Source of the DNA: Hormiphora californensis
Lineage: Eukaryota; Animalia; Ctenophora
Reading direction: 5' to 3'
Length of the DNA stretch: 64,000 nucleotides
Assembly (NCBI GenBank): GCA_020137815.1
Contig: CM035362.1
Coordinates: 1,426,001 to 1,490,000, forward strand
The notes under the pieces are model-generated. The model did not search any database. It was not told the origin of the DNA and worked only from the letters and a program-made list of their open reading frames with translations. Within the stretch, counting starts at the first letter, position 1. Each line of letters starts with the position of its first letter. This document shows positions 41,801 through 62,200 of this stretch, in pieces. A program made the position numbers and the translations under genes.

Positions 41801-44800
41801 GTATCAAATCAAATCAAGGTTTAGCTCCTTGATCCTTTTCAAATCATTTAAAATCAAGGATTTAACCTCCTCTTTTCCAGGTGGCCAAAAGATGGAGATG
41901 TGTGCCCAGCAATATTGTGAAGTGCCCACTCATTGCTATAACCTCACATACTCGGACGACAGATGTTGCCCCTACTGCGGTGATTCACCATATGATGGTG
42001 AGTAATACTCAGACTTCTGTTGTCTCATATGAGACCCTCCTCGCGTAGCCTCGGTTGCGCGGTGTACAGTCAGTGTAGGACAAGACTTCTGAAACAATTC
42101 CTACGATGATATAGAATTGTCTTTTCATATATGTCTAACCATATTGTATCAGGTCTGTCTGGCGCCGCAGACCCCATCTGAGCGCACTATTTGAGAATCA
42201 AATCGGGGTGTCCCTGAACGTGGTGTATCACGTGGGATGTACTAAACACTTGTAATGTTCTAACCCAGAATCCTCCTTTACAATTGCGTGGGAAACAGGT
42301 AGTCAACTAAACAAGGCAACTAAACAAGCACTGTGTTATTTCAGAATGCTTCGATTACACGGTGAACAACACTATCCTGTACGATGGCACAGCTAGCAAG
42401 ACAAAAAGCGGGAGGACATGTCAAAACTGGGGACTACAGTGGCCCAACACGCACACCCGAACACCCGACAATTATCCTGAGGTTAGTTGAGAGAGATAAC
42501 AAACAATACCATATAAGGGCATCACGTGACACAAACAATACCATATAAGGGCATCACGTGACACAAACAATACCATATAAGGGCATCACGTGACACAAAC
42601 AATACCATATAAGGGCATCACGTGACACAAACAATACCATATAAGGACATCACCTGACACAAACAATACCATATAAGGACATCACGTGACACAGACAATA
42701 CCATATAAGGGCATCACGTGACACAAACAATACCATATAAGGACATCACGTGACACAAACAATACCATATAAGGGCATCACGTGACACAAACAATACCAT
42801 ATAAGGACATCACGTGACACAAACAATACCATATAAGGGCATCACGTGACACAAACAATACCATATAAGGACATCACGTTACACACCTCTTCACAGGGTC
42901 TCCTTGGTTTCCACAACTACTGCCGTGATCCCGACAACTCTGGGTATCTCTGGTGTTATGTTGATGATGTAGAGTCTGATGATAGATGGGAGGAATGTGA
43001 CGTCAAGGCTTGCAGAGAGATTGGTAAGTTGAGCCCTGGTAGTTAAACCACTCTCTCTTCCCTGCACAGTGTCCAGTTAACCCCCTCCCTCCCCAGTTAA
43101 TCGCCTCTCTCTCCCATGTCCAGACTCCAGTTAACCCCTCCCCCTCCCCATCCCCAATTAGCCCACTCTCCCTCCCCATCTCCAGTTAACCCCTCTCCCT
43201 CCCCTGCACAGTTAACCCACTCTCCCTCCCCTGCACAGTTAACCCCTATCCCTCCCCAGTTAACCCCCACAACTGGGACGAGGACGAAGCTGAGGTGTTA
43301 AACGAATCAATATGTGTGAATGAGGGCGTTCAGATCGGATGTGAAAATGACAAGAGACTGGTACGTGATTATTACAAAACTCTGTACTGCTACACAGTGT
43401 TACTGTACTCTGTACTGTTAAAAAGTGTTACGTGTCATCCCCCCTATAATAAAACAACACGGATATGGTATCCAAATTAACTTACTTTGTGAAACGACCT
43501 CACATACTCTACTGCCCAATACAAGACCACACATTGACAAGAGCTGTGATTTCAATTTAACTCCCCCCACAGTAACCACAAAAACCATGGTAACCCCCCC
43601 TCCACAGTTCATTGTTTCGGCCAACTTTGGGGCGACTGAGGAGCAGAGGTGTTTCGACTACAACAGTACCACCGACTACTGTGATAACACAGCTGACACA
43701 ACTGGTAAACAAGCCTGTAAAACTACCCCCCACCCCCCCCCCGAGAACTACTATTTGAAGAGGGGAGGGATAAATATGTTGTTACACAAGAACCCTTATC
43801 ATAAACCGAATACCAATATAACATTGTTATATCCCCACTCCAGCGACCATCAAGGACAACTGTGACGGAAAGAGCTATTGTGAGCTAATTCCCTCCCGGC
43901 TCCAGTACAATGTTGGAGACTGCCAAGGATCAAACTTCTACCTGAATCTCACGTTCTACTGCAAACCAGACATCATGTGTTACTCGAAGGAGGGACGGTA
44001 AGCAGAGGAACCGACCGAAACAGGAAATACTGGTCCCTGATTGGCTGATAACCAGTCACGTGACCTAAATAACGAGTTGTGATTTGTTGTTGACTTGTGT
44101 CGGTCGGTTCCTGGAAAACATATTCCGCAACAAACTGCTTCCAAAGATGTAAAAACATTCTGGATCTATAACATTACTTCGGCCTGGTTTGGGGAGGGCA
44201 GTCTTTTATGAGATTACCATCACCAAACTATACATTTCAATCCGTATTGTACCGATCTAATCATCTAATCAGGTTCGCTAACTACAATGGGACAAGGAGT
44301 GAGACCAAGAGTGGTAGGAAGTGCATGAGATGGAACCAACAGAGGCCCCACGGACACTACTTTATCCCTGAGGAGTTCAGCGACCGAGGTGAATATCTTA
44401 ATTAGTCAACTAATTAGATAATTAATTGGCCAATTAATTAGTTAATTAGTCAATTACATTGTTAGTTTGTTCAGGTTTTGAATTATCGGGGTGTCAGGTA
44501 GATTGTAAACCCCCCCCCCTCTTGAGCAGGTATCGGCGAGCACAACTACTGCCGATTGTAACCCCCCCCCTCTCTCGTGCAGGTATCGGTGAGCACAACT
44601 ACTGCCGAGATCCGGATGGCGAAGGCCGACCCTGGTGTTACACCATGGACGAGGAGAAGCGATGGGAGTTCTGCGGTGTACCTCAATGTGAAGGTAAGGG
44701 TCACGTGACAATGCCCATATATAATGCCCATATATGGGCATGTTGCGTAACACTATGGCTGTGAGTGAAGGAACGGTTCAAGCTCACTCAGGCTCGGGAA

Positions 44801-59200: not shown

Positions 59201-62200
59201 CATCTCGACACCATACCTGACCACCCTCCAATTACTGGCTATGGTGTCCAGCACTGTAACTCACAACTCACATTGCTCAATTGGGCGGTTTCCGGTCCTG
59301 ATAAAGGGATGGCTTGCTAGGATTCTACGAAGCTCCCAAAAATAACAAAAGTAAGTATCAAGATTATTATCCCAGACTGAAATGATATCTCTATCTCTCT
59401 CTCTCTCTCTCTCCCTCTCAGCACGTGCACGATGCTGTCGAATTTGCCGTATATAAAGCATCAATCGGCAGGATTTATTCAATACTCAAGTCATGTTACT
59501 TTCAAATCTCCCAGTGTTGCTATTACTTCTGGTGGGTACCCCTGTGTCCCACTGCATACGACCTAACGTCCTAACGGAATTCGATGCAGTTTGGCACCTT
59601 GGGATGAACTTAAACCCTGCGGATGGCCATATCATGGGATACTCAGTAGGGTTGGCACACCGGAACCCCTATCGGAACCAAGGATACCGCCCTCTCAATG
59701 GATTACCTTGACCATTATGTATGGAAGGAGCCGGCTGACTACATCGCTATAGTGAGGCACCAGCATGGCGTAATTGATGCCGTCAAGGTCTTCAAATTCA
59801 GGTACTTTAGGTTAGGGTGATCTGGTATAGGCGATTTGGTGAAACTTCCCTAGCAATATGATAATACATCCCTAACATTATCGTATCCGGCCTTTCAGTC
59901 GAATTGTCGTGTTCCCATAAGAGAGCTGTGAATTTGTCAGCGCAGGATTATAGATGTCAAGTGAAAGTTTCGCGTAAGGTCTGTACCATTACCATGATTA
60001 CACTTACCTCCAGGTACTGGGGATTGAGCCTACTGGACAGATTTAAAGATATGAACCCGGGAAGACGGATTGTTAGTGACGGTGATGCTATACAAGAAGA
60101 AGTTGCATGGGACGCTGAAAACATACAAGATGATCCCATATTTGGTGTGGGAGGGGAGCTAGCCTTCAACTGGGGCTACACTAACAACGGACATAGGATC
60201 GTATTGACTGGGGGACATCTTTCAGATTTGGGAGTTGATGATGACAATACACAAGGCATAGGAAATGATTTCGCCTGCGATCCGTTAACAGGAACCACCT
60301 TGGCTGGTGGTATTCATCAACATGAGATATCCAACATTCAGGACTGCCCATACCCATCTTGTAGAAATGTCAGGGTCCAGGGAACTGATCACGGATCTGG
60401 ATCACATCTGAAGACAGGACCTGTCTATGGTAACTATGCCATCTACATCTCCAAGAATGTAAACCGATTCCCGCCTGTGGGCACAGAATTGTGTCTTGTT
60501 GTAAGAGGGACACGGAGTGTGAATTAGAGACAGAATCATTTGTGTGAAAGGGCGAGCCAGCGGTTCGTTCACTGATCGGAACGTTAACTCTCTGTGTTAT
60601 ATTGATATGTGTCTCCAGTGTGTTAATATATATGTGTTACTAGTACATTTACTTGGCCCCGTAAAAAACACCGCTGTTCTGAAAACTACTACTCCCAAAT
60701 AACTAACAGATCACGTCATAACATGTAAGTCATAGACAGTCGGACCCCGATTTTCATTTACCAGAATTCTGGCCTGGGGGAAACGATTTTACCCGGTATA
60801 TATCGTTAATCGGGGAGCCCGGTATATCGGGGTTAACTACTGTCAATTCGCTGTATATCGGATGATAAATAATCCGTATGGTAAAATGGGGTTCCGGCAA
60901 TATCTCCTTCCGTGTGCTCCGGAATGTAGGGTTACAACATAAAAAAAGGTATATCGGCGTCCAATTGTACAATATGTGCCCCGATATTGCAAACCCCTGT
61001 AAACCCCTGTATTTTTTGGCAAATATTTGCAGCCTGACCAAAAGTTTCGCAGCCTTAGTGATTTTTTGCAGCTCAACTGATCTTCCAGCGACATTTTCTA
61101 GGTTTTTTAGGTTCTTTTAGGCTTTTTTCAGGTTTTTAGACTTTTTGTGCTAAACTTGCCGCGAATATATAATTTTTGCAGCCCAGCGATCCATGGGTCA
61201 AAATCATTTTCTCAGCTTTTCAAAAATCGGGGCACTTGTTCTCAATTGTTAAGTTTCTCAAAATACTTACCGTTCAAATATGTCTTTATCCTGCAGGAAT
61301 TTGAATAATACAATTGTCTGATCTAATACTCGCTCAAGTTCTTGTTCCGATAACTGAGAGAGATCATTAATAATTAAACTTTAATTAGGTAATTATTTAA
61401 CAAAATCCAATGGTGAATTAGTAAGGAAAAGTTCCAAACTGTCGGGGAAAATGTGGGAAATTAGTGATCCCAAAAATAACTTACCCCCTTATTTCCCTTC
61501 TTCATTTTGTCGTCAATAAATAGTGATAGGTACTCCGGTGACTTAGAATTCTGGTTTTGGATATTCTCGAATTCCTGAAAATAAAAAATGGCTGATATCA
61601 AGTGGTCAGAGGAAACAAAAGTTGAAATACGACCCCATTCTCCCCAGAGGGTAATATAATTCTCACTCTCAAGCAAGGTAAGCCATCTCCCCCACACAAA
61701 CAGGATGGTTACCCCGGTTACCCCAATAATTTAATTTACCCCAGTTACCCCAATAACTTACCCCGGTTACCCTAATAACTTACCCCGGTTACCCCAATGA
61801 CTTACCCCGGTTACCCCAATAATTTACCCCAGTTACCCCAATAACTTACCCCAGTTACCCCAATGACTTACCCCGGTTACCCCAATAACTAACCCCGGTT
61901 ACCCCAATGACTTACCCCGGTTACCCCAATAACTAACCCCGGTTACCCCAATAACTTACCGAGCAGATGGCCTGTTTAAACATGTGGTCGTTGCAGAATG
62001 AATTCTTAAGAAATAAATCAAATCTCTCTTTCAGGTCCAGGAGGCTCTGCACATAGGCTATCGTGTTGCTGATGTCGCCCTCGCTATCAACCAATGTCTT
62101 CCCACACTCCCCAATGTACACTGTGTGTGGGTGGGAGAGGGTGGGTAGGGGGTGGGAGAGGGTGGGTTAGGGGGTGGGAGAGGGTGGGTTAGGGGGTGGG

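What the first reader, a model, noticed from the sequence alone, without database searches (positions are those of the whole stretch)
43070..61960. Splice junctions themselves are repeatedly duplicated: a candidate junction-anchored intron-growth process
Seen: at about ten independent sites in two genes on opposite strands, the duplicated unit straddles or starts at the exon-intron boundary. Acceptor side: 43074-43268, 44500-44606, 46443-46530, 46768-46897, 57996-58056. Donor side: 45703-46422, 47724-47764, 49825-49840, 54020-54420, 54604-54796, 61705-61960. The extra copies fall on the intron side, leaving decoy splice sites. Established: tandem duplication of AG|GT-containing sequence is a proposed route of intron gain. 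Inference: a mutational process tied to junctions (transcription/splicing-coupled breaks, R-loops, pre-mRNA-templated repair) may be expanding introns here, and the spliceosome must pick one site among near-identical decoys.
Basis: partly seen in the sequence, partly recalled or inferred. Interest (0 to 1): 0.8.

Follow-up and report, generated by a model that had tools for sequence, protein, structure and literature searches.

The report
Duplicated splice sites in comb-jelly introns
Short DNA duplications have copied about ten exon-intron borders of two genes of a likely comb jelly into the neighbouring introns; the RNA seen uses only the real splice site, so this is likely a tolerated kind of repeat already known from lancelets ("mirages"), with only a hint that duplications favour exon edges.

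Summary
In hand-built gene models (106 introns, median 216 nt), 9 of the 11 sites are duplications that cross a splice junction, one starts at the donor and one only abuts the acceptor. Contigs of public DNA runs hold six of them, and another sample differs at two, so they are not assembly errors. RNA contigs cross six sites and use only the exon-proximal splice site. That the extra copies lie in the intron follows from geometry and selection. Enrichment is unsettled: 11-13 of 46 intron duplications straddle a junction, against 5.4 expected per base (p 0.013-0.0015) but 7-11 within the same short introns; allowing for slower decay removes significance. I found no sign of intron gain or of mRNA-templated copies; fillers, microhomology and one donor copied from 2.3 kb away look like ordinary break repair. 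The kind is known: lancelet "mirages" and the human F7 intron-7 minisatellite; this scan noted it before in five other genomes. No whole genome was available for the decisive test.

The parts
35882..50168 (+). Gene F: 29 coding exons, secreted-type kringle/VWC/EGF protein of 1137 aa (Ig-like and lectin-like tail read by eye)
   Evidence: open translation (exon 11 end set at 41997); Pfam; RNA contigs confirm introns 13, 20-23 and 24-28
53291..63419 (-). Gene G: cullin (cullin-3-like by eye), 16 exons in view; intron numbers below count from the first exon in view
   Evidence: open translation of 595 aa; Pfam Cullin and Cullin_Nedd8
43041..43268 (+). Acceptor array in F intron 13; true acceptor before 43260, 8 further acceptor-like AGs
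   Evidence: X1 contig 43029-43396 with 0 differences; X8 RNA contig joins 43023 to 43262; X5 shows a different array
44501..44608 (+). 53-nt duplication across the F intron 17 acceptor; both copies read AG|GT
   Evidence: held by X1 and X5 contigs; no RNA join listed
45701..46419 (+). 38-nt minisatellite, 18.7 copies: last 35 bases of exon 21 plus 3 intron bases; 17 extra full-strength donors
   Evidence: RNA contigs of X7 and X8 carry one unit only
46418..46527 (+). 20-24-nt array abutting the F intron 21 acceptor (no exon bases)
   Evidence: X1 contig 46433-46808 without gaps; RNA uses the last AG
46768..46896 (+). 35-nt duplications across the F intron 22 acceptor, 2 strong decoys; polymorphic
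   Evidence: an X5 contig skips 85 nt (46783 to 46869); X7 and X8 RNA use the last acceptor
47722..47765 (+). 23-nt duplication across the F intron 25 donor (21 exact plus 2 filler)
   Evidence: X1 and X5 contigs hold it; RNA uses the first donor
49739..49839 (+). Copy of the end of exon 28 plus 3 intron bases, 84 nt downstream
   Evidence: X1 contig 49419-49996; RNA uses the first donor
49771..49819 (+). Filler between those two copies: a copy of the exon 24 donor region (47461-47511), 2.3 kb upstream; the two exon ends share a short similar stretch
   Evidence: blastn self-hit 45 nt, 91%, E 1e-9; the only distant non-array copy of a junction in the window
54018..54419 (-). Four 51-54-nt units across a cullin donor (intron 14 in view), with an inserted element between two units
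54602..54796 (-). 62-nt copy of exon end plus 3 intron bases (intron 13 in view), with a 71-nt filler that holds a 30-nt repeat
57994..58056 (-). 29-nt exact copy across a cullin acceptor plus 5-nt filler (intron 8 in view)
61709..61960 (-). 22-nt minisatellite, 11 copies, beginning at a cullin donor (intron 4 in view)
62109..62296 (-).
22644..22718 (+). 22-nt copy of an acceptor in a third gene (MORN/ankyrin/MYND-type by eye); the one clear case outside the finding

Best explanation
These are junction-spanning duplications of the known 'mirage' kind, likely made by ordinary DNA break repair and likely kept because splicing uses the site nearest the exon. Shown: short copies with 0-2 nt of microhomology or with fillers, one filler copied from 2.3 kb away, length differences between samples, and use of the first donor and last acceptor in RNA contigs. 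Inferred: end joining or strand-annealing repair makes the first copy; unequal exchange or slippage grows some into minisatellites; with introns of 100-200 nt a large share of duplications must touch a junction; those that disturb the mRNA are removed by selection; the survivors stay visible up to twice as long because one copy is held by the exon. Donor choice would follow 5'-3' scanning as in human F7; acceptor choice would follow exon definition.
For: Same-intron null expects 8.9-10.9 straddlers against 11 seen (p 0.25-0.56); with twofold persistence every null gives p of 0.12 or more for the whole window. Straddling is not favoured over abutting (13 vs 16, p 0.65) and 33 of 46 events are wholly intronic. 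Breakpoint anatomy and the proximal captured copy match repair-mediated duplication (PMC2671141: abstract and passages; donors mostly within 5 kb, fillers, microhomology, splice sites copied). RNA contigs of two studies use the exon-proximal site at 6 of 6 sites they cross; 18 of 20 decoys tested would give a premature stop. The 18 introns of the splicing-factor gene B and the 15 of gene C hold no such event at the main threshold. Same anatomy and same harmlessness reported in lancelet (PMC3087553, PMC3902484: passages) and human F7 (PMC1557585: abstract, introduction).
Against: Per base, straddlers are 2-2.4 times the expectation (p 0.013 strict, 0.0015 with the two borderline cases). With a pre-duplication floor of 130-180 nt the same-intron null gives p 0.15-0.06 (strict) or 0.035-0.011 (lenient). 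29 of 46 events straddle or lie within 20 nt of a junction, 3.1 times the mid-intron rate (CI 1.55-6.75, p 0.0004), which is above the twofold that slower decay can give at most, though the interval includes 2. The clustering in 43-62 kb (9 of 56 junctions vs 2 of 156) is unexplained. Three of six donor-side copies end just after the donor's first three bases. The twofold persistence factor is my argument, not a measurement.
Confidence: 0.55

Rival explanations
1. A real mutational bias toward exon edges that is set by DNA, not by splicing: in a highly polymorphic genome exons are islands of homology between the two chromosomes, so repair from the homologue would start in an exon and stall or switch template where homology ends, leaving duplications at the edge. 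Nucleosome linkers flanking exons would give the same pattern.
For: Edge excess 3.1-fold, equal for straddling and abutting events and for donors and acceptors (16 vs 13). Intron indels and array differences between samples. A related ctenophore has about 3.2% heterozygosity with indel-rich introns (PMC8527503, section on heterozygosity). The captured copy joins two exon ends that share a short similar stretch. That lancelets are also very polymorphic is recalled.
Against: Outside the chosen stretch the ratio is 1.7 (CI 0.6-4.7, p 0.18). The 20-nt bin was chosen after seeing the data; 46 events only. Pyrimidine tracts near acceptors favour slippage by composition alone.
Confidence: 0.25
2. One reading: transcription- or splicing-coupled breaks, R-loops or pre-mRNA-templated repair target the junctions and expand introns.
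For: Per-base excess of straddlers; three donor-side copies end three bases into the intron; the distant copy is itself a donor region, and two donors of one pre-mRNA can be close in a spliceosome-bound transcript (inference).
Against: No spliced-junction copy among 106 tested. No preference for crossing the junction. None at the main threshold in the 18 introns of a likely housekeeping splicing-factor gene. The distant copy holds intron bases and fits DNA capture. Straddlers make about 4% of intron length.
Confidence: 0.12
3. The decoys are functional: they tune expression through unproductive splicing or give in-frame variants.
For: Decoys score as well as true sites; two decoys of F intron 13 would add 7 or 16 residues in frame; in two human genes the nearest pseudo-sites are used (PMC1557585, introduction). 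Decay of stop-bearing transcripts could hide use from RNA contigs.
Against: No decoy use in any RNA contig laid; arrays differ between samples; terminal units decay.
Confidence: 0.05
4. The repeats are assembly artefacts.
Against: Six sites are held by contigs of public DNA runs, two of them also by a second sample; copies differ by substitutions.
Confidence: 0.03

Closest known systems
'Mirage' minisatellite-like duplications of intron-exon boundaries in amphioxus (globins BflGb6 and BflGb9, Adh3, PGBD5, troponin C; PMC3087553 and PMC3902484, passages read; the original Adh3 paper was not held)
   Same: Tandem units spanning a 5' or 3' boundary, decoy AG/GT signals, length differences between haplotypes, normal mRNA, mechanism stated as unclear, proposed as a route to intron gain.
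   Different: Here in a likely ctenophore; units mostly 17-62 nt; about ten in two neighbouring genes; several are two-copy events with fillers, one with a captured distant donor; somatic instability not tested.
Human F7 intron 7 37-bp VNTR and related donor minisatellites (6-16, CBS, lamin B2, PDGF; PMC1557585, abstract and introduction)
   Same: First unit spans the donor; identical pseudo-donors follow; the most upstream donor is used. The 38-nt array at 45701 and the 22-nt array at 61709-61960 have this layout.
   Different: Donor side only in that paper; the scanning mechanism was shown in mammalian cells, not in ctenophores; the 38-nt unit here is almost all exon.
[quoted passage not shown]
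   Same: A ~50-nt copy 2.3 kb from its source, with filler and short similarity at the ends, that includes a splice site.
   Different: Described in vertebrates; no empty site was seen here; here it sits between two copies of an exon end.
Intron gain by tandem duplication of an AG|GT segment (Rogers model; PMC3265369 and PMC4974935, search listing only)
   Same: The 53-nt duplication at 44501 carries AG|GT in both copies and could in principle be removed as a mini-intron.
   Different: All events here lie at existing introns and lengthen them; no new intron is shown.

Membership tests
Mirage (boundary-spanning tandem duplication) | Repeat unit includes both exon and intron bases of a real junction | tested here: met
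   9 of the 11 sites, plus 2 more
Mirage (boundary-spanning tandem duplication) | Copies keep AG/GT signals as decoys | tested here: met
   decoys reach the 5th percentile of true-site scores at all but the borderline site 36941
Mirage (boundary-spanning tandem duplication) | Normal mRNA is made | tested here: met
   RNA contigs at 6 of 11 sites; contigs drop rare forms; 5 sites unseen
Mirage (boundary-spanning tandem duplication) | Length differs between haplotypes | tested here: met
   X5 skips 85 nt at 46783-46869 and shows a different array at 43116-43203
Mirage (boundary-spanning tandem duplication) | Somatic instability (reported for Adh3) | not testable with these tools
   needs single-molecule reads of several tissues
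Intron gain by AG|GT tandem duplication | A new intron at a position empty in relatives, bounded by direct repeats | tested here: not met
   boundary repeats of 6 nt or more in 6 of 106 introns vs 4.1 by permutation, p 0.21; orthologous introns of relatives could not be fetched
RNA-templated repair (mature mRNA) | Genomic copies of exon-exon junctions | tested here: not met
   106 joined 18-mers, 6 matches at up to 2 mismatches, 5 at the intron's own acceptor and 1 unrelated; an unspliced template is not excluded
Repair-mediated duplication (proximal capture) | Donor within a few kb, filler or microhomology at the ends | tested here: met
   49771-49819 from 47461-47511
Repair-mediated duplication (proximal capture) | Empty site in another haplotype or species | tested here: inconclusive
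   no joint across 49753-49840 in X1 or X5
   significant per base, not within host introns or with slower decay; one window only

The most novel reading that the evidence does not exclude
In this ctenophore, and perhaps in other hyper-polymorphic marine animals, DNA repair makes duplications preferentially at exon edges (about threefold over mid-intron), because exons are the islands of homology between the chromosomes or because splice junctions are break-prone. That would give mirages the mechanism they lack, make exon edges the growth points of introns, and supply thousands of natural decoy arrays, on both donor and acceptor sides, to read splice-site choice in the earliest-branching animals.
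Probability: 0.3. Interest if true: 0.65.

Novelty: new member of a known kind. Interest (0 to 1): 0.33.

Why it matters
The kind of structure is known, but its origin is stated as unclear in the lancelet literature read here, and my searches showed no genome-wide test of junction enrichment and no ctenophore case; subscription papers are not covered. A dense set of young, polymorphic examples in a small genome makes that test easy. The acceptor-side cases, where the last of several equally strong AGs is used in an animal with 200-nt introns, point to exon definition outside bilaterians (inference). Practically, such decoys can mislead gene prediction.

Tried and rejected
No whole genome was held, so no genome-wide null. 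A scan of metagenome contigs with a 30-nt piece of the organism's high-copy element gave one 1.2-kb contig, too little to use. Searches of earlier findings in this genome and in look-alike stretches were empty. The original Adh3 mirage paper was not held. A putative cullin exon at 56251-56322 was dropped because the frame runs without it, so the 10-nt repeat at 56237-56256 is not a junction event. Rows left out of the 46-event count: 4 repeats inside mobile elements, 2 matches between paralogous exons, 6 repeats inside exons, 10 outside modelled genes, and microsatellite or low-complexity segments; the event list, unit lengths and collapsed intron lengths are hand-curated. X5 has no cover at 43466-43561 and 45578-45673; a hole proves nothing and I do not count it. 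Weak junction copies (score 9-12) add 5 cases against about 1 by chance and were not counted. No supplements were read; those of PMC3087553 and PMC3902484 hold the mirage alignments.
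Full report
Setting. The window is animal DNA with short introns. An exon of the U2 snRNP SURP-motif gene at 3714-4094 is 99% identical to a EukProt protein named sb/3469416; that this naming belongs to the ctenophore Pleurobrachia bachei is recalled, so I write 'likely comb jelly'. 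No whole genome was held. I modelled eight genes by hand, 106 introns, median 216 nt. The finding covers the 3' half of gene F (+ strand, kringle/VWC/EGF protein, open for 1137 aa) and a cullin gene G (- strand, open for 595 aa in view); Pfam supports both.

Observation. All eleven sites hold duplications. Nine cross a junction, one (61709-61960) starts at the donor, one (46418-46527) only abuts the acceptor. Two more cross junctions at 62109-62296 and 22644-22718. Chance is excluded: 11 of 212 junctions have a copy scoring 13 or more in their own intron against 0.17 with swapped introns. Contigs of run X1 hold six sites with the extra copies (43029-43396 with no difference). X1 may be the assembled sample. 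X5, another sample and study, holds two sites unchanged, lacks 85 nt of the intron 22 acceptor array and shows another form of the intron 13 array. The arrays are therefore real, young and variable.

Splicing. RNA contigs from two metatranscriptome studies (X7, X8) cross six of the eleven sites and always use the site next to the exon: last acceptor in introns 13, 21 and 22, first donor in introns 21, 25 and 28. Decoys score as well as true sites under matrices trained on this window, some better. Of 20 decoys tested, 18 would give a premature stop, so rare use could be hidden by decay and by the contig assembly. That extra copies lie on the intron side is not evidence of a mechanism: it is the only arrangement that leaves the mRNA unchanged.

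Enrichment. I catalogued local direct repeats and kept 46 events that involve introns, leaving out repeats in mobile elements, paralogous exons, exon-internal and intergenic repeats and microsatellites. Eleven straddle a junction, thirteen with two borderline cases. A per-base null over all introns expects 5.4 (p 0.013 and 0.0015). A null within each host intron expects 10.9 with raw collapsed lengths, 8.9 with a floor of 100 nt and 6.8 with 180 nt (p 0.56, 0.25, 0.06 for eleven; 0.25, 0.07, 0.011 for thirteen). A junction copy has one member held by the exon and should stay detectable up to twice as long (my argument); with that weight no whole-window null is rejected (p 0.12 or more). The stronger signal is nearness to exons: 29 of 46 events straddle or lie within 20 nt, 3.1 times the rate at 20-99 nt (CI 1.55-6.75, p 0.0004; p 0.12 with twofold weight), and only 5 lie 100 nt or more away against 18.5 expected. 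Straddling is not favoured over abutting (13 vs 16, p 0.65). The stretch and the 20-nt bin were both chosen after seeing the data. All duplications together add about 3.7 kb, straddlers 1.6 kb, to 37 kb of intron.

Mechanism. Clean two-copy cases show 2 nt of microhomology (44501), or fillers of 2, 5, 67 and 71 nt (47722, 57994, 49739, 54602). The filler in intron 28 is a copy of the exon 24 donor region from 2.3 kb upstream (45 nt, 91%, E 1e-9), the only distant non-array junction copy in the window. This is the pattern of repair-mediated duplication (PMC2671141, abstract and passages). It includes intron bases, so its template was DNA or unspliced RNA; no copy of a spliced junction was found among 106. 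Intron ends show no excess of direct repeats (6 vs 4.1, p 0.21), so no intron gain is in evidence. Three of six donor-side copies end three bases into the intron, which is suggestive but may reflect selection for a working donor. I put ordinary repair plus geometry and selection at 0.55, a DNA-level bias to exon edges at 0.25 (a related ctenophore has about 3.2% heterozygosity and indel-rich introns, PMC8527503, heterozygosity section), the splicing-coupled model at 0.12, function at 0.05 and artefact at 0.03.

What is known. Earlier notes of this scan led me to 'mirages' and to F7; I read the papers myself. PMC3087553 (passages) describes minisatellite-like duplications of both 5' and 3' boundaries in lancelet globin and Adh3 genes, with decoy signals, haplotype length differences, normal splicing, an unclear mechanism and a model for intron gain; PMC3902484 (passages) adds PGBD5 and troponin C. 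PMC1557585 (abstract, introduction) shows that the most upstream of identical donors is used in human F7 and lists four more genes. PMC2812944 (passages) reports 162 alignments with variable tandem repeats at human exon-intron boundaries before curation. The scan noted the same anatomy in five other genomes (unchecked notes). Searches showed no ctenophore case and no genome-wide enrichment test.

Verdict. A real and unusually dense set of mirages in a likely ctenophore: a new member of a known kind. Interest 0.33; most novel reading 0.3 likely, worth 0.65 if true.

Noticed in passing
49771-49819 (source 47461-47511): A copy of the exon 24 donor region sits in intron 28, between two copies of the end of exon 28: a templated insertion from 2.3 kb away.
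   Followed up: yes
44006-44113, about 50195-50300, 58530-58622, 63172-63264: A ~110-nt element with CCAAT and CACGTG motifs, in introns and in the 3' UTR of gene F; summed contig depth about 500,000 against 20-40 for unique DNA in X1, so on the order of ten thousand copies.
   Followed up: partly
39199-39447, 42499-42885, 44710-44735, 54664-54734, 6853-6884, 26520-26650: Many intron arrays and fillers carry CArG-like CC(A/T)6GG motifs, often beside CACGTG (35 and 34 matches in the window; names recalled), frequently just behind a donor. The 13-nt repeat at 44710 is absent from an X5 contig.
   Followed up: partly
48135-49038: A 904-nt element with long terminal inverted repeats is absent from contigs of both X1 and X5, with a 3-nt overlap at the joint: a polymorphic MITE-like insertion.
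   Followed up: partly
38584-40320 (- strand): A five-exon gene for a small secreted cysteine-rich repeat protein is nested antisense in intron 6 of gene F; nested genes are common in Hormiphora (PMC8527503, passages).
   Followed up: partly
25588-25592: A run of five C breaks the frame of the ankyrin/MYND-type gene; likely a homopolymer error of the assembly.
   Followed up: no
about 56370-57380 (- strand): A long reading frame that looks by eye like a LINE ORF1 fragment lies in a cullin intron.
   Followed up: no
23673-23857: This intron is bounded by a 9-nt direct repeat including AG|GT, the longest in the window; a candidate for an intron born by duplication or end joining.
   Followed up: no
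20640-20969, 62129-62258: Arrays whose unit is a branch-point-like CTAAC plus pyrimidine tract end 8-12 nt before an acceptor, giving 6-15 decoy branch points.
   Followed up: partly
about 28480-29960, 30600-31520, 36060-36485: Large palindromic elements seen by eye; and the element inside the 54018-54419 array has a second copy near 37200-37380.
   Followed up: no
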